The notes beneath the pieces were generated by a model that saw only the letters and a list, made by a program, of their open reading frames with translations, ran no database searches and was not told the DNA's origin. Below are positions 6,139-64,000 of a stretch of 64,000 bases of DNA, in pieces (position 1 is the first letter of the stretch; each line of letters opens with the position of its first letter). Position numbers and translations under genes: made by a program. Source of the DNA: Octopus vulgaris (Eukaryota); NCBI GenBank assembly GCA_951406725.2, contig OX597831.1, positions 18,600,001 through 18,664,000 on the forward strand, read 5' to 3'.

Positions 6139-7990
6139 TATTATGCCGAGGTCACGCAGTTTGTGGCGTATCATACCATGATCCATCTTGTCAAAAGCTT
6201 TTGCAAAATCAAGGTAGATTACGTCCACATTTGATTTGTTGAGTAACTGCCCCAACACTCAGTCATAATGTTGTAAGAGCTGGGTCAGGCAGCTCCTATC
6301 TAGTCGAAAACCATGCTGGGTATCACTGGGTATTACTTTTGGCCCAAATATAGACAGCTCTATTATGTTGTGATCCGAAACTAATGTCAGTGTCACTTTC
6401 ACATCATGAATGATGTCCATATTGTTCGTGAAGCAGAGATCCAGAATGCTATTCGCCCTAGTTGGTTTGAGTACAACTTGCTCCATGAATAAGGCGTTAG
6501 TGAGGTTGAGCAGGGACTCCACCTGTACTTGCTTGCAATGGTTCATTCATGAGAGTATAAGACCTTCAGGCCATTTGACGTTGGGGAAGTTGAAATACCC
6601 CATAAGAAATATGGTCACGTGGTGTTCCAGATTCATGAGGATTTCTTTAATTCTTGTGTGGCAATCTTCAAACTTGCCTATATGATTTGGGGCATCCGGT
6701 GGGCAATATGTATTGCATATGACTATATTATGTTATCTTATGTATACAATTAGAGTGTCACATACCGAATTTGAGTGTGTAATTAAGACCTGGGAGGTGA
6801 GGTCATCTCGGATGTATACAGCAACTCCACCATGGCTCCTTTCCCTTCTGTCTGTTCGCAGTATGGCATAGTTTGGTATGTGTACTTCTGCGTCTTCTAT
6901 ATCAGGGCTGAGGTGAGTTTCCACGAGAGCTATGCATAGGGCTTGATTGCATGCAGTAAGAACTCTCAGGAAAGGAATTTTGTTTCTACTCTAATGCAAC
7001 AGACCCCCAAAATTTAGTAAAAGTATTGGGGTGATGGCTGTGCAGGCGTTAGGGGAGGCCATCCCGTGTCTGTTGACTGTGGTGGTCTTGCATAGTGGTG
7101 GGCAGGATTCCTTCTCAGTGCTCGGTCTAGCAAGGTTAGCTGCCGGACAATTCTTTGTGCCATGCATAAAAAGACTCTTGCTCAGCTGCTGCGTTGCGCA
7201 GAACATCTGAGGTGCGCACTTCTTTTTGAAAGTTTTCCTGGGAGACATTTCTTGCCTTCCCCCAGTAAAGCTGTTTTCTTTGAGACCCTGAAGGCGGGAT
7301 GTCGGGTGGGCGAACCGGCAGTTTTTGCCGTCCTCCCCATGCCAACAATTGCCCCGCAGGTAGAAGTTACAGGTTCTTCGGTGCCTTCCAGATTTCTTAT
7401 TTCCTGAAGTGTACTGGGTTGCATTGGATCCTCCATGGGGTTCTCTGCTGTTTGTGTGGTGGGTTGGGGTCTCAGCTTTGGTTGTTTTGCCTTTTCTTCC
7501 CTTTCCCTCCTTATTTTTGCTTTCGGTCCTTCCTTTTTTCTTCTGTTTTTCTAATTTCTCATTTTATTGTAGGACCACTGGTACAGGGGGGCTTCCGCTG
7601 TCTCCTCCCTTGGCTCCCCTATCCTTCACTACCTCGTCGTTCACTGAGGTAGGTGATCCATTTTCGTGAGGATCACTTGGATCGCAGAGACATCCGGCTT
7701 CCTTCTCTTTTTCGTCCTCTTCATCCTCATCAACCTTGCCACAATAATTTTCAATTATGTTATCCAATGTTTTGATGCGTGGTTTTATAAGCATGTAAGA
7801 CCGGATAAATTCACCTTTCTTTCGCTCTATTTGGTCAATGGTTCTATGAAATCCATTGTTCTTTAGCGCGGCAGTGATGATGCTGTTCGGCGGATCGCCA
7901 CTAGCAATTGTCCACGCTCTTAGCAGAAGATTTAACTCTTTCTTTTCCCACCTTGGTGCCATCTTCGTTTTGAAGTCCAGAGAGGGAGCA
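6139..7990 (-). mobile_element. CR1-group LINE remnant: ORF1 region, APE endonuclease and a short RT piece; internally deleted and 3'-truncated
   Basis: APE motifs ETHL..RTDR..GGVAVY (6733-6924) and PTR..ILDL..SDHN (to about 6335) are fused directly to RT sequence [36 protein letters not shown]. Stops and frameshifts are present. Confidence 0.9.
7564..7962 (-). pseudogene. Putative LINE ORF1 N-terminus with a Myb/SANT-like motif
   Basis: MAPRWEKKELNLLLRAW...IITAALKNNGFHRTIDQIERKK lies upstream of, and co-oriented with, the APE domain. Confidence 0.5.
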
Positions 7991-7994
7991 GAGG

Positions 7995-8610
7995 CTAGAC
8001 AGGTAATAAGGGATAGAGAGAGGTAGAGACGGAGAAACACAGAGGGGGAATAGGGAAAGAGAGGGGGAGATAGGAAAGAAAGAGAGAGGTGCTATGAAAG
8101 AAATCGGGAGGGTGATAGGAGGAAAGCAAGAGATAGAGAAAGGTAGGGGAAGGGGAGGGGAATAGAAAAAGTGACAGAGTGAAGGAGAAGAGAGGAAGAG
8201 AAAGAGAAGCAGAGTGAAGGAGAGGAGTGTAAGAGAAAGAGAGGCAGAGTGAAGGAGAGGAGGGGAAGAGAAAGAAAAACAGAGGCGAGGAGAGGATAGC
8301 AAGAGAAAGAGAGACATGATGAAGGATGTGAGAGAGAGGCAGAGACGGAGTGAGAAGAATGGGTGAATGAGAAGTATATGAGAGAGAGTGTGAGGTGACG
8401 AGAGGAGAGGTAGATGTGAGATGGAAAGGAAAGAGAAATGAGAGAAGAGGAGGATATGAAAGGGGGGGGGAGAGAGATGAGAAAAAGAGTAAGGTATGCA
8501 AGAGAGAGGGAAAAGGTAAGCGTAAAGAGAGATAAAGGAAGGGAGAAAGGAGCTGGAAGTGGGGGAGTATATGTAAGGGAGGAGAGAGGAGTTAGAAGAG
8601 GGTGAGGAAA
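7995..8610. repeat. GA-rich polypurine low-complexity tract
   Basis: About 600 bp almost purely G/A on the + strand. Confidence 0.9.
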
Positions 8611-11888: not shown

Positions 11889-11992
11889 GTTAATCCAAAC
11901 AAGAAAACACAGAAAAAAAGAAAAAACACAGCAACGCAGGACGTGGAACAATTAAAGTATTATTGACGCTCAGGAAAGAAGGGAAGGAGGGT

Positions 11993-12022
11993 TTAACGTT
12001 TCGAGCGGAGCATTCGTCGGAA
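11993..12022 (-). ncRNA. Degenerate minimal type I hammerhead motif in a Penelope-like pLTR fragment (about 11889-12036)
   Basis: TT CCGACGA A TGC TCC GCTC GAAA CG TT AA. It is related to 63072-63109 and shares the downstream TTTCCTGAGCG. Confidence 0.5.
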
Positions 12023-12038
12023 GCAAGGAGAAGGAAAT

Positions 12039-13291: not shown

Positions 13292-13302
13292 TATATAGAA
13301 GG

Positions 13303-13353
13303 AGCTTCTACAGGACTAGAACTGTTTCATTCAAAAGAAATCATCAGGAAGCT
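13303..13353 (-). ncRNA. Type I hammerhead ribozyme with intact core
   Basis: AGCTTC-CTGATGA-TTTC TTTT GAAT-GAAA-CAG TTCTAGTC CTG-TA-GAAGCT: 6-bp helix I, helix II, helix III and a GUA cleavage triplet. Confidence 0.85.
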
Positions 13354-13563
13354 AGTAGACAAGAGTTGTTTTGTAATTTATACATTTAGGCAGGTTTAAA
13401 TGGGTGGTGGTGGGGGACTTTTTTGGGGGTAGGCATGGCGCAAAACTATCATTATTAGGGGAGTGGTCAAAGGAATCGGTGGTAAAGTAGATAAAAGAAT
13501 AAATAAAAGAATAAATAGAAAAATAGAGTTTTAGGCAAGTAAGGAGACTCTCACTTGTACATC

Positions 13564-16276: not shown

Positions 16277-18309
<2,033 letters not shown>

Positions 18310-36992: not shown

Positions 36993-37996
36993 TAAGAGTT
37001 GGTAAGAAAGTAATTCCGTTTTACAGAAATATCTAGAGTTATCATTATTTTTTTAATGACTTTTGTCAATGTTGTAATAGTTTCCTTTTAACATTTGAAA
37101 GCTGTTACTTTTAGCGTATTTTAGAGCATATTGCGTGTAATTTGTTTGGAGCTGTTAGTTCAGTGACAATTAACATGGAGTGCGAGTGCAAAAAGGAATA
37201 TTTTCCCCATATTTTGCTGTTTCATTTCTGTAAAGGCAAGGAAGCTGCTGAGGCTCGCAAAGAGATATATGAAATTTATGGTGTTGCCTGCTTAAGAGAA
37301 CGCACACGTCAGAAATGGGTTTTTAAATTCCATTTTGGAGATTTTTTCACCCAAGCAAGATCAACAGAAGTTGATGATGACCGAATCAAAGCTATAACTG
37401 AATCTGATTGTCATATAACTGCGCGTGGGATTGCAAAGAGGGTAAATGTATCACACACAACAATTGAAAATCCGAATTGCATAAAAAAAGGACGTGTTGT
37501 AATTTTGTGGGATTACAAAGATGTTGTGTATTTTGAGTTGTTTCCAATAAACCAAACGATCAATTCAGGTCTTTTCTGTCAACAACGAATGAATCTAGAG
37601 AAAGCAATCAAAGACAAAACGGCCAGAATTAGCAAATCATAAAGAAATAATGTTTCACCATGAAAACGTAAGACGCACACGTTTTTGCTAAATCGTGAAA
37701 TGTTATCGGTGCTTCATTGGTAAGTAATGTCACATTCACCATAAAGCCCATTTATTTCTAAGTTTGCAAAATTCTTTGACTGGAAAATCTTCCAATAAGG
37801 ATGATGACCTGAAATCGCATTTGCCTCAGTATATGGTGGATAAGGACCAGACGTACTATGAGCACGGAATTGTGAAGTTGCCAGAAAGATGGCAAAATGG
37901 AAAATATACAATTGGTGAAAGTTCATCTTTTGTATGAAAAAATGCTAACTTTTATTTTACACTAAATCACGAAATTAATTTCTCCCCAACCAAATA
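36993..37996 (+). mobile_element. Degenerate mariner element
   Basis: Transposase remnant WDYKDVVYFELFPINQTINS..FHHEN. Imperfect TIRs TTGGTAAGAAAGTAATTCCGT and ACGAAATTAATTTCTCCCCAA. Confidence 0.85.
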
Positions 37997-41789: not shown

Positions 41790-42480
41790 CAAATGAGCAT
41801 AAAACATATATGAAATATAATTATTCATTCGAGATATGATCGCCTTCGTTGTCAATAGCATTTCCACACCTAAACACTTTTCCCCCGCAGACAAGAAACA
41901 GAAAATATCGTCTTTTAGAAGAGGTAAATATTAGGAGTGCCGCTTCGAATTCGTTCCTAGATCTGAATGTTTTTCCATTTATAGATTTCAGGTGAATTGA
42001 ATAACTGAAAATCTGATGGTGTATCCTAACCTAATAAAGTTATCTTTTATGATGCTACCTACGCTGAACACAGCCTTGCATTGGCATATTGCATGATCAT
42101 TCTGTTTCAGTTGCCTAGAGCAGATTGTTTCTTTCAATAAAACTTGGTGAACTCATTTAAACTGAGGACAATGAATTTCTGCGTTTAAATTTTGTTTTGT
42201 TCCAATAATTTGAAATGCTTGATACCGATTGTATCCCCCCAAAAAACGTTCAAGAAAATAGTTGCATTTGGATCTTGTTTGTGTATTAGAAATGGCATTA
42301 CAATTGGTGATAGCCATTGCTTCATACGTTTATTGTTGTCATAAAACATCCATTTAAAAAATACATCTCAATTAAATAATTTACCAATGAGAAAGAAGGA
42401 CAATGTCAGAATGGCAATCCAAACATTCTTCTGTACTACAGAACATGGTGTTTTGCCTGATGAATGAGAAAACTTGAGTG
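41790..42480 (-). mobile_element. Highly decayed mariner-like transposase remnant
   Basis: Minus-strand PSDFQLFNS (about 42020) and a decayed HDNAR-like ANAR (about 42080). Confidence 0.45.
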
Positions 42481-43855: not shown

Positions 43856-46165
<2,310 letters not shown>

Positions 46166-46170
46166 GATAG

Positions 46171-46218
<48 letters not shown>

Positions 46219-46229
46219 ATAGATATATA

Positions 46230-46292
<63 letters not shown>

Positions 46293-46570
46293 CAATTGAG
46301 GGTAAATTTAATTAATTATTAATCAATTTCACCAAGTATTCAGTATGTAAAGGGACCATTTAAGGCGAATTCAAAATATTACATTATATATAAGGGCTTA
46401 GTAAAATAAATTACTTTGCCACATACTGAACTCATTAGAAATAGCAGCTAAAGAAATTTCTTTAGCTATTTCTAATACTTAAAGAAGATTTCTCTCAGAT
46501 AGTGTTTGCTCAAACCAACTCACGAAGGTATGGGGGTAAAAACATTAAAAAATCAAGTGCAAAGGTTATT

Positions 46571-46622
46571 TGAGAACGTACGTTTCTAGATTAGTCAAAT
46601 CGACATTTCCTTCGTCAGCTCA
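46571..46622 (-). ncRNA. Minimal type I hammerhead motif
   Basis: TGAG-CTGACGA-(weak helix II with GTC/GAC)-GAAA-CGTACG-TT-CTCA, containing the palindrome AACGTACGTT. Confidence 0.7.
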
Positions 46623-47523
46623 GAACTCCTTGATTCGGATTTGGGAACACTGAAAGTGGGAGCATACCCTTTTGGCTTCTTATCACCTCTGGAATTCCGC
46701 TCGAACTAAAAGTGCTAACAAATTCAAAATATGCAAGCGAAGAATTTCTGCTCTCCCCTTTCCACCAGCGTGGGTTAAAATTGACAAACACTATGTTTTA
46801 TCGGTGAAAACCGAAGCATTAAACAGAGAGAAATGAATTATAATTTCAACAATTGAGGGTAAAATTAATTAATTATTAATCAATTTCACCAAGTATTCAG
46901 TATGTAAAGGGACCATTTAAGGCGAATTCAAAATATTACATTATATATAAGGGCTTAGTAAAATAAATTACTTTGCCACATACTGAACTCATTAGAAATA
47001 GCAGCTAAAGAAATTTCTTTAGCTATTTCTAATACTTAAAGAAGATTTCTCTCAGATAGTGTTTGCTCAAACCAACTCACGAAGGTATGGGGGTAAAAAC
47101 ATTAAAAAATCAAGTGCAAAGGTTATTTGAGATTTCTTTAGCTGCTATTTCTAATGAGTTCAGTATGTGGCAAAGTAATTTATTTTACTAAGCCCTTATA
47201 TATAATGTAATATTTTGAATTCGCCTTAAATGGTCCCTTTACATACTGAATACTTGGTGAAATTGATTAATAATTAATTAATTTTACCCTCAATTGTTGA
47301 AATTATAATTCATTTCTCTCTGTTTAATGCTTCGGTTTTCACCGATAAAACATAGTGTTTGTCAATTTTAACCCACGCTGGTGGAAAGGGAAGAGCAGAA
47401 ATTCTTCGCTTGCATATTTTGAATTTGTTAGCACTTTTAGTTCGAGCGGAATTCCAGAGGTGATAAGAAGCCAAAAGGGTATGCTCCCACTTTCAGTGTT
47501 CCCAAATCCGAATCAAGGAGTTC

Positions 47524-47575
47524 TGAGCTGACGAAGGAAATGTCGATTTGACTAATCTAGAAACGTACGTTCTCA
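47524..47575 (+). ncRNA. Minimal type I hammerhead motif (inverted copy)
   Basis: Identical to the minus-strand motif at 46571-46622. Confidence 0.7.
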
Positions 47576-48063
47576 AATAACCTTTGCACTTGATTTTTTA
47601 ATGTTTTTACCCCCATACCTTCGTGAGTTGGTTTGAGCAAACACTATCTGAGAGAGATCTTCTTTAAGTATTAGAAATAGCTAAAGAAATTTCTTTAGCT
47701 GCTATTTCTAATGAGTTCAGTATGTGGCAAAGTGATTTATTTTACTAAGCCCTTATATATATATATATATATATACATATATATATAGATAGATATATAT
47801 ACACACACATAAACGGCCATAGATTAACAATACACAAGTAACGCAAAATAACATTAATAAACGAGAAAATTGAAAAAGTTTTTCAATTTTCTCCTGGTTT
47901 ACGGTATATGTTATTTTGCGGTTATATAGTGGTGATATATATATTCCTGATTGTGATGTTGAACGTAAAAATGGTTTATGACTATTTAATTTTTTCCTAC
48001 TAGGCCGCTGGTGGCAAAAGAATTCTACAAAATTTTTTTTGCCACCCTATATTGATTAATTAT

Positions 48064-48203
<140 letters not shown>

Positions 48204-48241
48204 GATATATATTACTTACATTTGACGGATATTTTGTCCGC

Positions 48242-48284
48242 AACACAACGTTTCGGTTGATATCTCCAACCTTCATCTCGTGTC
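48242..48284 (-). ncRNA. Decayed minimal hammerhead (core GAGATGA), homolog of 20439-20484
   Basis: GACAC-GAGATGA-A-GGTTG GAGATAT CAACC-GAAA-CG-TT-GTGTT, with the shared downstream ATCCGTCAAATGTAA. Confidence 0.55.
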
Positions 48285-48364
48285 TTCGGGAAATTTCGGA
48301 CCTGGGTTCTCATTCGTGAGGCATTCTTCGATGTTATTATTATTATTATTTTATTATTCAGGAC

Positions 48365-54492: not shown

Positions 54493-54564
54493 CATAATAA
54501 AAACACGATGCGAAGAATTTAGCGGTACATATGTATCGGACCTTTATATGTATCGGACATTTAT

Positions 54565-57144
54565 TTTTTCCTCTCACTAAAAGAGAGAATTCGCCGGAGG
54601 AACCTGATATCCGAGCTAAAGATGAGGAAACAAATGGGAGAGAAGGGTTTACGAATCCAAGATGGACAGATAATCAAGTCCTACCTCTGGTCCCATGCTG
54701 TAGTGCTGACAGGGAAAGAGATGTGAGGGCAAATCGAAGTGAAGTTGATACCCCCGTCAACGATGCTATCTCTGATGCCCTTTATTCTGCTTGTTCCCCA
54801 ACTCCCGCCCCTCAGACTTCACAGCTCAGCATCGTCTACACCAACTCGTGCTCCTTATTCCCAAAGTTCAGTGAACTATTTACACTGGCCCTACGCGACT
54901 CCCCTGATGTGATAGCTATAACCGAGACTTGGCTGACTCCAGCAGTAAAGGACTCAGAGATCCACCTGCAGGGCTACGTCCTTTTCATATGTGACAGAGG
55001 AAAAAGGCGAGGTGGAGGTGTTGCTGTGTATGTTAAGTCTGAGCACAAACCGTCCTGCGGTATTCTACCCACAAATGCTCAACCTACAACAAAATGCGAT
55101 GCCGTCTATTGCAAGCTGAGCCTATCTGAGTTTTGCCTGCCCGTGTTGGCTGTCTACAGGCCGCCTCTAGCCGACCCCCAGGACGATGCTCATCTACTCG
55201 AGGCGATAAGATTCGTTTCAGCTTCGCATGACTGCTTGGTACTAGGCGACTTCAACGCTCCCATGATCGATTGGCCCGCATCAATTTGTACAACATCTTC
55301 CCGGTTCGGCCAGGCCCTTCTTGACGTGGCTGAAGATTGTTTTCTATCGCAACATGTTGAATATCCGACAAGGCATCGGTCTGGGCAGCAGCCATCTATG
55401 CTAGATCTGGTATTCTCCCGCTATCCAAGATCAGTGTCAGACGTATCTGTGTGCGCCCCTCTTTCCAAGAGTGATCATGCGGTCCTGAAGTTCGTCATGC
55501 ACACAACTTTTTCCACGCCCACGATTACTTCGCTGCCACGTAGAGTCTTCTCTGCAATTAATCTTGAAATTCTAACCGAGGCTTCCGCGCTTCTGGACTG
55601 GCGTTCCCTGATGACGTTGTCCTTAGTTGACGAACTATGGTCATCCCTCAAAGCATATGTAATCTGTTTGACTGACCAGGCAGTTCCCGTTGGACTTCCC
55701 AAGAGGAAGAAACACAAGCCCTGGGTGACGAAGAAGGTTAAACGAGAACGTCGACTCAGAGATATTGCTTGGGCTGAATTCAAAAATCTGGATTCGACTG
55801 CAGTTTTTGAGGTGTACAAAACTCAACGAGACCGAGCCGTGAAAATTGAAAAGAAAGAACGCTTCAGTTATGAATACAAAATCGCGGCAAATGCCAGGAG
55901 CAATCCAAAAACCTTCTTTGCCCATGTCCAGCGGAATTCCCGCTTGAACAACCAGATTGCAACGTTGGTAGACTCAACAGGGGTATCGATTGAGGACCCT
56001 TATCAACAGAGTCAATTATTTGCCGAGGCTTTTTCAACTATTTTCAAACAAGATGATGGCCGTGAACCCCCTCCATTTGATAGATCGGTACCTCCAATGC
56101 TTCGATTGATCATCACGCGGGACCAAGTCAAACGTGTTATTCAAGGCCTCGATGTCAACAAGGGTCAATGCCCTGACGGCATACACCCACGGGTTATCAA
56201 AGCGTTGGCTCCGGTCATCTGCGAGCCCTTAACACGACTATTCAATATGTCATTGGCGACGGGTGTTATACCTGCAGACTGGAGAACAGCGATAATCTGC
56301 CCAATTTTCAAGAAAGGGAGCCGCGAAGACCCGCTTAACTACCGACCGGTTTCCCTTACATCAATAATCAGCAAGAAGTTCGAAACCATCCTTAAGAAAA
56401 GTATGATGCTCCACCTCCTAAGCACAGCCTCGATCACTGATTCCCAACACGGCTTCGAGCCGAAGAGATCATGCTTGACCAACTTACTAGTAATGGAAGT
56501 ATTGGTGACGCGCATCCTCGATGATAGTGATGCTGTTGACATCGTTTTATTGGACTATGCCAAAGCTTTTGACTCGGTAAACCACCGCCTACTACTTGTC
56601 AAGCTTCAAGCATATAGTTTCCATCCGGATATTGTACGATGGGTTGGTGCCTCTTCTCCTTATCTCCTCAAAGACATAGAGCACCTCGAAAGAGTCCAGA
56701 GGCTGCCTACCCGCCTGGTTCATGGACTCAAAAATTTGTCCTACGAAGAAAGGCTGAGGACGCTCGACCTTTATTCTCTTGAAAAACGCCGCCGCCGTGG
56801 TGATCTCATTCTCGCCCACAACATCATAAGTGGGAAGTGTAACCTCTCGAAAGAGCTGTTCTTCACTCCTGCTCCGGAGCGTCGGCTGAGGGGTCATTCC
56901 GAAAAGCTCTACCTGCGACGATTTCATCTCAATCGAAGGAGAGGAGCTTTCTCCGTCCTGGTTGCGGATCCGTGGAACAAGCTGCCAGATGAGATGGTGA
57001 AGATGCCGACGACCGCTTTGTTCAAAGCCTCCCTGAACCTCAAGTGGCCTGAACTCTTTACATGAACACCACCCTGTACTTAACTCCATGTCCCCCTACA
57101 TGGCCTTGCTATTTGCTTTTGAGCCAAATTAACTAACTAACTAA
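54565..57144 (+). mobile_element. CR1-group LINE (APE and RT with in-frame internal deletion), (TAAC)n tail
   Basis: The open 844-codon frame has APE motifs (ITETWL, GDFN, SDH) and the RT N-half up to LDYAKAFD. It then jumps at about 56650 (WVG|ASSPY) to the C-terminal region, so PQG and YADD are absent. Confidence 0.95.
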
Positions 57145-58589
57145 GACGGTTTATAACAATGCATAATTGATGTAAATGTGTGCCAATAGCCTTCTTCAGC
57201 CGTGTACAATTACTACTTCAAGGACTTGTATTACCTTATAAGTTTTACGTTGGGGATGCAAATCCTCATAGTCATGTACGACAGGGCCAGACACCAAAAC
57301 AAAGTCAAAGCGTCCATCCCGTTTTTAACTCGATGTAGAATGAGGAGGTTGGTTGTTGAGATAGAGAGGGAAGGTGTTGGGGGTGAATCTTTAATGTGTT
57401 AGGGATCACAAAGAGGGAAGGTAGTAGGTGCAAAATGTAGTAAAAGAGTAAAAAATTACAAAAGAGTAAACATTTAAAAGGTATATAAACAATATAAGAC
57501 TATAAAAAAGTATCTAAGTATATAGATATATAAATATATAAATATATACATATATAAATATATAAATACACACAGACGTGAAAAAAACATGGGAATATAA
57601 ATAAATAGAGATAAAGATAAAGAAGCGAAAAATAAAGAAGAAAAAAAAGGATAAAAAATTTAAATAACAAAATATAAAATATAAAGAGATAAAGAAATAT
57701 AAAGGGATGAAGAAATATAAAGTGGGGAATAACTAAAAGGGTGGTCGGAAGATAACGTAAGGTACAGAAAAAGGGACATATTCCGGTTGTTGAAGCCTAA
57801 GGGTGTAATGGCGGATGTCATAAATTAACTTAATTGTCTGGAGACCAAGTGGATGGTCAATATAGGTTGTCTGGTTTGTGGCTAAATAGTTTATCTACTT
57901 TCTCGTAAATTGTCTGTGTTACTAACGGTCAACATGTACACACGTACACGCATGCATACATATACACATCCACACATATATATACATACTCTCGTTTAAA
58001 AATACCGACAGGGATACGCATATACATACGTCCCGCTACGTACAGATTCCTAAACTCGAACAAACTAAATACATAAAAGCATATACACTTACACGCCTCT
58101 GCAGACGCACTCGTATACATACAAATACATACTCACACGTACATATATCAAGCCCGCACATCTACACACTTACATACGCATATGCGTACATACATAAATT
58201 TCTCAATATACACATACATACGGAAAAAAGCGCATGCAGTTGGGCACAAGAACCCACTAGGCTCTTATATTTACTCCCCCATGCAATATCCTCCCATTCA
58301 ATTACAACTTGTTAGCACATACCATTTTTTTCCTATATCTATTTTTTCCTATATCTATTTCCATTTCTAGCTTTGATGTTGAGCCCACACCCTTGAACTC
58401 CGCTTCCCACTCCTTCACTTATGACTACTCCGTAATTTCCCCTCCTCCCTGCCTTTGTTTTCCTGTCCTTTCCTGGGTGGTTACCTTTACACACACCTGT
58501 ATTTTTACCTTTACAATCACCTTTTATTTTTACCTTTATTTTATCTCTATTTATTTCTATTTTTAGTTCAATTACCCTATATGTTTATT

Positions 58590-59332: not shown

Positions 59333-60687
59333 TTACGTGTACTTATACGTGTGTAGGTATTTCCGCTTGTACGTGTGTGTGTGTAGTTATATGTGTATGC
59401 GTATGTATACTTGTATGCGCATTTCTAATTCCTCCTTGTCCGAGTGCATGGAGGCGCGCATGCACGGGTGTAGGCATGCGAGTGAATATACCTGTTTCTA
59501 TGCAAATGCATGTATGTATATTTTGGTGTATATGCATAGGGATTTACTTCCTCATGTGTGTGAGTGTGTGCGTGAGTGTGGGTGTGTGTATGTGTGTATG
59601 TACGTGTATGTGTATGCATACGTATGCGCGTGGGTTCTTGTGCCCAACTGCATGCGCTTTTTTCCGTATGTATGTGTATATTGAGAAATTTATGTATGTA
59701 CGCATATGCGTATGTAAGTGTGTAGATGTGCGGGCTTGATATATGTACGTGTGAGTATGTATTTGTATGTATACGAGTGCGTCTGCAGAGGCGTGTAAGT
59801 GTATATGCTTTTATGTATTTAGTTTGTTCGAGTTTAGGAATCTGTACGTAGCGGGACGTATGTATATGCGTATCCCTGTCGGTATTTTTAAACGAGAGTA
59901 TGTATATATATGTGTGGATGTGTATATGTATGCATGCGTGTACGTGTGTACATGTTGACCGTTAGTAACACAGACAATTTACGAGAAAGTAGATAAACTA
60001 TTTAGCCACAAACCAGACAACCTATATTGACCATCCACTTGGTCTCCAGACAATTAAGTTAATTTATGACATCCGCCATTACACCCTTAGGCTTCAACAA
60101 CCGGAATATGTCCCTTTTTCTGTACCTTACGTTATCTTCCGACCACCCTTTTAGTTATTCCCCACTTTATATTTCTTCATCCCTTTATATTTCTTTATCT
60201 CTTTATATTTTATATTTTGTTATTTAAATTTTTTATCCTTTTTTTTTCTTCTTTATTTTTCGCTTCTTTATCTTTATCTCTATTTATTTATATTCCCATG
60301 TTTTTTTCACGTCTGTGTGTATTTATATATTTATATATGTATATATTTATATATTTATATATTTATATACTTAGATACTTTTTTTTAATTCTTATATTGT
60401 TTATATATCTTTTTAATTTTTACTCTTTTGTAATTTTTTACTCTTTTACTACATTTTGCACCTACCTACTACCCTCCCTCTTTGTTATCCCTAACTCACT
60501 AAAGATCACCCCAACTCCTTCCCTCTCTATCTCAACAACCAACCTCCTCATTCTACATCGAGTTAAAAACGGGATGGACGCTTTGATTTTGTTTTGGTGT
60601 CTGGCCCTGTCGTACATGACTATGAGGATTTGCATCCCCAACGTAAAACTTATAAGGTAATACAAGTCCTTGAAGTAGTAATTGTAC

Positions 60688-63109: not shown

Positions 63110-63225
63110 CTTGTTTTATTTATATTTCCTGAGCGCCATACTAATACAATTGTACGTTTGTTTTCCACCTGCCTTCGTCTTTTGTCTATTTTCATAAAGC
63201 TTCCCGTTATATATATATATATATA

Positions 63226-64000
63226 TCCTTAAATCCTTAAATCCTTAAAAAATGTTTTAGCCCAACGGCCGCGGCCATGCTGGGGCACCACCGCTGAATG
63301 AGCTACACTAATTTGTGAATCCACCTCTGATACGTGGCACTTGATCAACAAGGGAGTTCGATGCTGCTGCCCGCATCTGCGTCTCCTGTCGTGAGGTAGG
63401 TTCATCTGGGACTCCCACAAGAAGAGATCCAGTTTAGATTTAAAGAAACCCACAACCACACCATGTAAGTCTCTCAGGCATTTAGGGAGGATGTTAAAGA
63501 GCTGTGGTCCTCTGAAACCCAAGCTGTTGCACTATCTGGACCTGTATTTTGATGGTGATGTTGGCACCATGCAGTGGTGCCCCCTTCTGCGGTTGGGGTA
63601 ACTTTGAATGCCAAAGTTTGGGACAAGACCCTCCAGGATTTTCCAGATGTATATCACCGCATATCTCTCCCGCCTCCGCTCTAGGGAGAAGAGGTTTAAT
63701 ACCTTCAGTCTTTCCCAGTAGCTGATATTTTGCATTCAGACGATTTTCTTTGTGTAGCTTCTCTGAATTTCTTCGAGTTCTGCTGTTAGTTTTATATTGT
63801 GTGGTGACCACAGTTGAGAGCAGTAGTCCAAGCGGCTGAGGACGAATGTTTTCCATAGGACCATCAGTGTCTCCTTCTCTCTTGTTCTGAAAGTTCGGAG
63901 AATCCATCCAGCTAGCCGTCTGCATTTTATCACCAGATTAGCAATATGCACTTGGAAAGATGCATCATTGCTCATGTCAATGCCCAGGTCACGCACTGAT
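63226..64000 (-). mobile_element. CR1-group LINE 3' end, same family as 16277-18194, running off the window
   Basis: Near-identical to 16277-17058, with a (GGATTTAA)n tail in (TA)n. Confidence 0.95.

What the first reader, a model, noticed from the sequence alone, without database searches (positions are those of the whole stretch)
46291..47761. 557-bp hammerhead tandem unit whose inversion breakpoint falls on the predicted self-cleavage site
Seen: the unit repeats with period 557 (46291, 46848). The minus-strand HHR (CTGACGA..GAAA CGTACG TT^CTCA) would cut between 46575 and 46574. The equivalent position in unit 2 is 47132/47131, which is where the direct copy stops and a 630-bp inverted copy starts (1 nt ambiguity). 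The inverted arm begins at the apex of an internal palindrome (TAAAGAAATTTCTTTA). Both arms run through an intact HHR and exceed one unit length. Known: Penelope pLTRs and metazoan non-LTR retrozymes carry minimal HHRs with palindromic helix-III loops that act as dimers, and retrozymes yield circular RNAs. Inference: the template 5' end was made by ribozyme cleavage, and copying went round a circular or multimeric RNA. This would be a non-coding, retrozyme-like replicon inside the putative gene B intron.
Basis: partly seen in the sequence, partly recalled or inferred. Interest (0 to 1): 0.85.

Follow-up and report, generated by a model that had tools for sequence, protein, structure and literature searches.

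The report
Octopus hammerhead retrozyme with inverted arm
This is a young copy of an abundant, non-coding octopus jumping element that carries a hammerhead-ribozyme motif and has the head-to-head shape typical of Penelope-type elements; its breakpoint does sit on the predicted cut site, but the breakpoints seen in sister copies do not.

Summary
The anatomy is real: period 557, an 841-nt arm ending at the predicted hammerhead (HHR) cut (47131/47132, 1-nt ambiguity), a 629-nt inverted arm starting at the centre of a 22-bp palindrome, and (TA)n on both sides. It is one copy of a high-copy octopus family. The unit is non-coding, and family variants keep the fold of the HHR strand (P 0.003-0.02) but not of the opposite strand. 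All 15 joints shown (of 42) in three other runs are head-to-head inversions like this one, so the shape is not an assembly quirk. It is the published Penelope-like (PLE) pattern. The HHR lacks the usual G-C pair closing helix II. A circle has no 5' end, so a cleaved end would point to a linear multimer. Verdict: new family of a known kind (non-LTR retrozyme / non-autonomous PLE). Odds that cleavage made this one end are about 0.4. No host gene was found.

The parts
46104..46290 (.). left (TA)n tract, the insertion target; at most 1 nt of homology to the unit at the join
46291..47131 (-). left arm, 841 nt = one cut-to-cut monomer (47131-46575) plus 284 nt; RNA sense is the minus strand
46575..47131 (-). 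557-nt monomer from predicted cut to predicted cut; 34% GC, longest stop-free frame 60 aa, folds at -141.4 kcal/mol as a circle (z -5.4 against 40 shuffles)
46571..46622 (-). type I hammerhead motif: 4-bp helix I, interrupted helix II closed by A.A, helix III inside a 10-bp palindrome; predicted cut 46575|46574
46434..46476 (.). 43-nt near-perfect hairpin (further copies 46991-47033 and 47670-47712) with a 22-bp perfect palindrome at its tip; a compensatory G-C to A-U pair among family variants
47129..47133 (.). inversion junction: left side at the predicted cut, right side at the palindrome centre; base 47132 fits both arms
47133..47761 (+). right arm, 629 nt, inverted; unit positions 119 to 557+190, wholly nested within the span of the left arm
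47524..47575 (+). second copy of the hammerhead motif, identical to the first; predicted cut 47571|47572
47754..47801 (.). right (TA)n tract; its first 8 nt are shared with an internal TA run of the unit (microhomology join)

Best explanation
A recent insertion of a high-copy, non-autonomous Penelope-type element (non-LTR retrozyme) of octopus. Shown: anatomy, abundance, recurring head-to-head inversions, selection on the fold of the HHR strand. Inferred steps: (1) a tandem source copy gives a more-than-unit RNA. (2) A PLE reverse transcriptase/GIY-YIG protein acting in trans nicks a (TA)n tract and starts inside the RNA, 284 nt downstream of the HHR cut, with no homology to the target. (3) It copies 841 nt, through one uncut HHR, and stops at the next HHR. 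(4) The cDNA 3' end pairs over 4 nt (one G.T) with the tip of the hairpin 118 nt back and copies its own strand, or joins a second cDNA there. (5) The new strand joins the other side of the (TA)n through the shared 8-nt TA run. Across the family such stops are set mostly by RNA structure. For this copy the stop is either a ribozyme-made 5' end of a linear, partly cleaved multimer (about 0.4) or a stall or chance stop at helix III (about 0.6).
For: Period, arms and (TA)n flanks. 1,814, 3,936 and 2,565 contigs of three runs lie on the stretch, with summed depth up to about 1e6 against 54-268 for junction contigs (the tool warns that depth is no copy number). 15 of 15 joints shown (of 42) run from left-arm + to right-arm +, the same 5'-to-5' polarity. 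Of 37 variant positions only 5 break a predicted pair on the HHR strand, against 11.4 expected (P 0.003; 0.008-0.023 in the linear, reduced and outside-hairpin versions); the opposite strand gives P 0.12-0.46. Partial tandems with an adjacent inverted 5'-truncated copy and (TA)n bias are described for PLEs (PMC8557442, passages). PLE RT starts internally at a site with no homology to the target (PMC11167929). Retrozymes are proposed to be non-autonomous PLEs (10.64898/2026.07.22.740005). The hairpin tip is unpaired in the folded cDNA at 47012-47015.
Against: No autonomous partner was found or could be searched for (no genome held; no GIY-YIG or PLE-type frame among 252 frames scanned). The two outer ends differ by 94 nt, not by the 30-40-bp PLE tail. 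The HHR has A.A at the base of helix II; its monomer fold is only -1.6 kcal/mol, and the active dimer (-17.8) is not the lowest co-fold (-24.1). None of the 32 pieces shown (8,389 not shown) spans this locus's own junction. The runs hold at most 66% of the unit's words, so they may be other individuals or species.
Confidence: 0.8

Rival explanations
1. One reading: HHR cleavage normally defines the template 5' end, and copying goes round a 557-nt circle.
For: This junction fits the cut to within 1 nt (chance 0.7-2.5%). The left arm is exactly one cut-to-cut monomer plus 284 nt, with a seamless internal HHR. Repeats within the insertion differ at only 4 positions, while family contigs range from under 90% to over 99% alike. 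One sister joint ends 4-8 nt from the cut (46567).
Against: 0 of 30 ends (table 5) and 0 of 44 (with table 5c) lie within 3 nt of the cut; 9 of 30 and 13 of 44 fall at unit positions 142-171 (scan P 0.002 and 5e-5). A circle has no 5' end, and an HHR held in an RNA:DNA hybrid cannot fold (inference). In the one PLE studied in vitro, HHR cleavage was dispensable and no RNA reads began or ended at the cut (PMC11167929).
Confidence: 0.12
2. For the junction only: both breakpoints are structure effects with no cleavage. The predicted cut is also the edge of the 10-bp helix-III palindrome, where RT would meet a duplex in a dimer, and the other end is a hairpin tip.
For: The cut coincides with the palindrome edge. 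The dimer helix III is worth -11.6 kcal/mol. Sister breakpoints cluster just before the 43-nt hairpin. Base 47132, one past the cut, is present in the junction.
Against: No sister breakpoints sit at this palindrome edge either (0 of 44 within 3 nt). Base 47132 is equally explained by the inverted arm or by a non-templated A.
Confidence: 0.45
3. DNA-level event: an ordinary tandem copy later underwent a palindrome-driven fold-back duplication during replication or repair.
For: The right arm is nested in the left, starts at a palindrome centre and ends in a microhomology join.
Against: 15 of 15 sister joints shown have one polarity (5'-to-5' in RNA sense), which follows from reverse transcription and not from symmetric DNA repair. 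The duplication stays inside the element. Divergence within and between arms is alike (about 0.5%), so there is no sign of a later event.
Confidence: 0.08
4. Assembly chimera of a collapsed repeat family.
For: High-copy repeat between microsatellites; this junction was not seen in the pieces shown.
Against: Arms carry 4 private differences and share bases at which the laid contigs differ (46487, 46610). Junctions of the same type stand in separately assembled contigs of 3 runs from 3 studies.
Confidence: 0.05

Closest known systems
Metazoan non-LTR retrozymes (coral, mussel, axolotl; PMC7229834; vertebrate survey 10.64898/2026.07.22.740005)
   Same: Non-coding tandem unit with a type I HHR, low GC, self-paired fold, thousands of copies likely; 557 nt lies within the 51-972 bp range of the vertebrate survey; axolotl HHR_Amex1 has a palindromic loop 3 and HHR_Amex2 a U.U mismatch at the base of helix II.
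   Different: Longer than the 220-390-nt units tested in coral, mussel and axolotl; A.A at the base of helix II; inverted insertions are not mentioned in PMC7229834 (0 hits for 'inverted'); cleavage and circles are untested here.
Penelope-like elements with pLTR min-HHRs (Penelope/Poseidon, Neptune; PMC4209133, PMC8557442, PMC11167929)
   Same: Partial tandem, adjacent inverted 5'-truncated copy, (TA)n target, 4-bp helix I, long helix II with an unpaired base after A9, palindromic helix III, start of reverse transcription without target homology.
   Different: No ORF; no G10.1-C11.1 pair; outer ends differ by 94 nt rather than a 30-40-bp tail; partner unknown. Naiads share the (TA)n bias but lack canonical HHRs and survive only as remnants in cephalopods (PMC8557442), so Neptune or Poseidon is the likelier helper (inference).
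Non-autonomous Chlamys PLEs such as MRC1 (PMC8557442)
   Same: Non-coding PLE derivatives that form pLTRs and head-to-tail multicopy insertions.
   Different: Green algae; most Chlamys lack canonical HHRs.
R2/RTE 5' ribozymes (HDV-like, twister; PMC7761336 passage) and L1 twin priming (recalled)
   Same: A ribozyme cut that defines the template 5' end; head-to-head 5' inversions made during target-primed reverse transcription.
   Different: Different ribozyme class; here most junctions ignore the cut; both arms overlap by more than a unit, which single-template twin priming does not give.

Membership tests
non-LTR retrozyme | tandem unit of a few hundred bp carrying a type I HHR | tested here: met
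   557-bp period, 1.5 units in direct order, HHR core in the unit
non-LTR retrozyme | no protein coding, GC below 45% | tested here: met
   longest stop-free frame 60 aa, GC 34%; the 3 unit frames scanned have no Pfam hit
non-LTR retrozyme | stable self-paired RNA fold | tested here: met
   z -5.4, and -3.9 without the big hairpin; the antisense strand also folds well (z -4.2), but only the HHR strand's pairs are kept by variants
non-LTR retrozyme | canonical HHR geometry (closed helix II, loop 1-loop 2 contacts) | tested here: inconclusive
   core and helices I and III present; helix II closes with A.A; no Rfam hammerhead match; a mismatch there is known in an axolotl retrozyme
non-LTR retrozyme ('active copy' rule of the 2026 preprint) | two consecutive direct units each with a complete HHR | tested here: not met
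   each arm holds one complete HHR; this copy could not release a monomer by two cuts; it does not bear on the family
non-LTR retrozyme | self-cleavage and accumulation of circular RNA | not testable with these tools
   needs bench work; only contigs were available
non-autonomous PLE | partial tandem with adjacent inverted 5'-truncated copy | tested here: met
   this locus and 15 of 15 sister joints shown
non-autonomous PLE | microsatellite (TA)n insertion bias | tested here: met
   both flanks; one sister loose end joins (TA)n at 46839, 9 nt from this copy's end in unit terms; only two loci seen
non-autonomous PLE | min-HHR consensus with G10.1-C11.1 | tested here: not met
   A.A instead; unpaired base after A9 and palindromic helix III are present as in PMC4209133; a conserved feature of the ribozyme, not of mobility
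non-autonomous PLE | 30-40-bp tail | tested here: inconclusive
   ends at unit positions 284 and 190; the second is a microhomology join
non-autonomous PLE | sequence shared with the pLTR of an autonomous PLE | not testable with these tools
   no genome held; collection scans blank
autonomous PLE | RT plus GIY-YIG ORF between pLTRs | tested here: not met
   no ORF in the unit
viroid-like RNA replicon | RNA-to-RNA replication, usually ribozymes on both strands | tested here: inconclusive
   HHR on one strand of the unit only; replication not testable

The most novel reading that the evidence does not exclude
This junction is a genomic footprint of hammerhead self-cleavage in vivo: a linear multimer, cut at its 5' HHR and uncut at the next, was reverse-transcribed to its ribozyme-made end, and the cDNA then folded back on its own hairpin tip to build the inverted arm. 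It would be direct evidence that a PLE-type HHR acts during retrotransposition, and a mechanism for PLE inverted ends, testable on the many copies in octopus genomes.
Probability: 0.35. Interest if true: 0.6.

Novelty: new member of a known kind. Interest (0 to 1): 0.32.

Why it matters
The in vivo role of PLE-type hammerheads is called 'a mystery' in PMC7761336, and the origin of PLE inverted ends is listed as open in PMC8557442. A young, very abundant family with many inversion junctions lets both be tested from genomes alone. The first sample of junctions says RNA structure (a 43-nt hairpin), not the ribozyme, sets most breakpoints. My searches listed no paper describing an octopus retrozyme; repeat libraries such as Repbase and Dfam could not be searched, so the family may already be catalogued. 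As a single locus it is an ordinary product of a known class.

Tried and rejected
No genome is held, so copies could not be collected with flanks. Rfam: 0 matches at gathering score in the window; 17 weak matches at E<=10 over the element, none a hammerhead, mostly miRNA hairpin models, taken as chance. Exact-pattern scans of metagenome, prokaryote and viral contigs: 0 each. Sequencing runs: no RNA holder listed; run X13 is only guessed to be RNA, so I draw nothing on expression from it. Earlier findings: three look-ups, nothing shown. Host gene: 145 + 107 stop-free frames of 45 aa or more (of 304 that passed my filter; most LINE frames left out) gave RT, mariner and endonuclease hits, plus low-complexity or sub-cut-off hits (DUF3915, Atrophin-1, AKAP2_C, ZSWIM1-3) that I reject; shorter exons would be missed. 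MFE folding of the isolated HHR does not give the active shape (z 0.3-1.4). A pile-up of sister ends at position 284 (2 of 30, P 0.08) or at the hairpin tip (0 of 44) is not supported. Three of the four differences between repeats are A/G on the RNA strand; A-to-I editing was considered, and three cases are too few. Depth per bin was not used to map ends, as the tool warns against it. Two papers (PMC5785218 on dimeric PLE HHR variants, PMC5850863 on Terminons) are not held; they and the bioRxiv supplements may list an A.A helix II variant or this family.

Full report
OBSERVATION. 46291-46575 repeats at 46848-47132 (284 of 285 nt), and 47133-47761 is an inverted copy of 47013-46385 with 3 differences. 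Base 47132 fits both arms. I number the unit from the predicted cut (position 1 = 47131, minus strand). The left arm then covers positions 1 to 557+284 (841 nt) and the right arm 119 to 557+190 (629 nt). The arms meet 5' to 5' in RNA sense, and the right arm is wholly nested in the left. Both outer ends abut (TA)n. The left end has at most 1 nt of homology to the tract; the right end shares 8 nt with an internal TA run. The unit occurs nowhere else in the window. The host is an octopus: a mariner-like frame at 37115-37639 is 97% identical to a record named for Octopus sinensis, the 1 hit among 91 candidates.

THE RIBOZYME. My descriptor gave 3 hits in the window: the two copies in this element and an unrelated one at 13347. 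Thirty Markov controls gave 0.23 loci per window. Helix I has 4 bp. Helix III lies in a perfect 10-bp palindrome, worth -11.6 kcal/mol as a duplex between two copies, so a dimer is the plausible active form: -17.8 kcal/mol against -1.6 for the monomer fold, though the best co-fold is another shape at -24.1. Helix II is long and interrupted. It has the unpaired base after A9 that PLE min-HHRs show, but an A faces it where G10.1-C11.1 is normally conserved (PMC4209133, parts 1-2 of 4 read). In the three main runs all covering depth at 46610 carries the change that turns the first G.U of helix II into A-U, which supports this register. Rfam finds no hammerhead. Activity is therefore open. In the 2026 preprint only 1 of 9 predicted retrozyme dimers cleaved in vitro.

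THE FAMILY. Twenty of 24 listed runs, from 9 studies and 4 organism labels, hold part of the unit; the best holds 66% of its words. I laid 4 of them on 46295-47750: 1,814, 3,936, 2,565 and 44 contigs, from under 90% to over 99% alike. Summed depths reach about 1e6, against 54-268 for the single junction contigs. That suggests thousands of copies, but the tool warns that depth is not copy number. Table 3 showed 40 of 106 variant rows, which collapse to 37 unit positions. On the HHR-strand fold 18 are unpaired, 14 keep the pair (one pair in the hairpin changes on both sides) and 5 break it, against 11.4 expected from the same substitutions placed at random (P 0.003). The result holds for the linear fold (P 0.014), without the two variants seen only in X13 (0.008 circular, 0.023 linear) and outside the big hairpin (0.009). 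On the opposite strand P is 0.12-0.46. So the family is under selection as a structured RNA of the HHR strand. This does not tell a circle from a line.

THE BREAKPOINT TEST. Table 5 showed 15 of 42 joints (9 in X3, 5 in X2, 1 in X1, one contig each). All 15 go from the left arm's plus strand to the right arm's plus strand, the same head-to-head inversion as at this locus. Table 5c added 7 more of that kind; I dropped 3 rows that repeat table 5 and 1 short back-jump. Of 30 ends in table 5, 0 lie within 3 nt of the cut and 1 within 10 nt (expected 0.4 and 1.1). Of all 44 ends the counts are again 0 and 1 (expected 0.55 and 1.7). In contrast 9 of 30 and 13 of 44 fall at positions 142-171, just 3' of the 43-nt hairpin at 99-141, where a reverse transcriptase coming from the 3' side would meet it (scan-statistic P 0.002 and 5e-5). 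Limits: about half the joints were not shown, some may be misalignments around the hairpin, the uniform null ignores a bias to short arms, and the runs may be of other individuals or species. The sample bounds cleavage-made ends at roughly 7% or less of junction ends. It does not exclude a minor class.

MECHANISM. Shown: anatomy, abundance, fixed inversion polarity, strand-specific fold. Inferred: a PLE protein acting in trans nicks (TA)n and starts inside the RNA at position 284. An anole PLE starts internally, without homology to the target, and extends both strands (PMC11167929, parts 1-2 of 4 read). The first cDNA runs 841 nt through one seamless HHR, so the template was a multimer or a circle. 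Its 3' end can pair over 4 nt (one G.T) with 47014-47017, at the tip of the hairpin in the folded cDNA, where 47012-47015 are unpaired. Copying its own strand from there and joining the far (TA)n through the shared TA run explains the start at the palindrome centre, the nesting, the near identity and the 94-nt difference between the ends. A second cDNA primed from the other strand is the alternative; sequence cannot separate them. On the stop at the cut: plain chance is 0.7-2.5%. But the cut is also the edge of the helix-III palindrome, so a structural stall predicts the same place, and sister copies show that structure sets breakpoints. A circle has no 5' end, and an HHR in an RNA:DNA hybrid cannot fold, so if cleavage made this end the template was a linear, partly cleaved multimer. 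I put cleavage at about 0.4 for this junction (my estimate, not a computed value).

COMPARISON. An inverted 5'-truncated copy beside a partial tandem, and (TA)n bias, are described as typical of PLEs (PMC8557442, passages). Cleavage, circularisation and more-than-unit reverse transcription were proposed for PLEs in 2014 and for metazoan retrozymes in 2020 (PMC7229834, passages and Discussion). A 2026 preprint (parts 1-3 of 5 read) argues that animal retrozymes are non-autonomous PLEs, with units of 51-972 bp. PMC7761336 (passages) calls the in vivo role of PLE HHRs a mystery. The anole study found cleavage dispensable in vitro and no reads ending at the cut. Searches for a genomic junction at a PLE HHR cut and for an octopus retrozyme listed no such report; I saw those listings and abstracts only, and two key papers are not held. 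L1 twin priming is recalled, not read.

WHAT IS NOT SUPPORTED. No host gene could be shown; the neighbours are a LINE at 44149-46017 and other repeats. Nothing bears on RNA-to-RNA replication. This locus's own junction was not among the 32 pieces shown, so long-read confirmation is still wanted, though the type of junction is common.

VERDICT. Real, and well read by the first stage, but a new family of a known kind: works like a non-LTR retrozyme mobilised by a PLE (0.8), with membership short of the helper and of bench proof of cleavage. The striking coincidence is a single case against 44 that ignore the cut. Interest 0.32; 0.6 if the junction proves to be a cleavage footprint (0.35).

Noticed in passing
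window 11890-12037 (-): About 150-bp element between two (TA)n tracts with a degenerate minimal-HHR-like core near 12020; no similarity to the 557-bp unit. Probably the 3' remnant of another PLE family.
   Followed up: partly
window 48205-48345 (-): Another short element with a degenerate HHR-like core at 48279 and a well-paired helix II, ending in (TA)n on its RNA 3' side; unrelated to the unit by blastn.
   Followed up: partly
window 13300-13360 (-): Descriptor hit for a type I HHR with 6-bp helix I and 3 extra pairs in helix III, followed by (TA)n; helix II is weak, so it may be chance (0.23 expected per window).
   Followed up: partly
window 44149-46100 (+): 5'-truncated LINE RT fragment (Pfam RVT_1, one in-frame stop at 45214-45216) ending in a short repeated tail directly before the (TA)n tract that the element entered; other LINE fragments at about 6500-8100, 16354-18200, 54501-57065 and 63200-64000.
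   Followed up: no
window 37115-37642 (+) and 42188-42367 (-): Mariner transposase remnants (HTH_48, Transposase_1); the first was used to place the host as an octopus.
   Followed up: yes
table 3, places 46453 and 46460: The hairpin's palindrome changes on both sides in many family copies (G-C to A-T), so the hairpin is maintained.
   Followed up: partly
window 57926-58370 and 59428-59961; 57511-57722 and 60165-60377: Host sequence around 57.5-60.4 kb looks like a larger inverted duplication (the same frame is listed on both strands; mirrored microsatellites).
   Followed up: no
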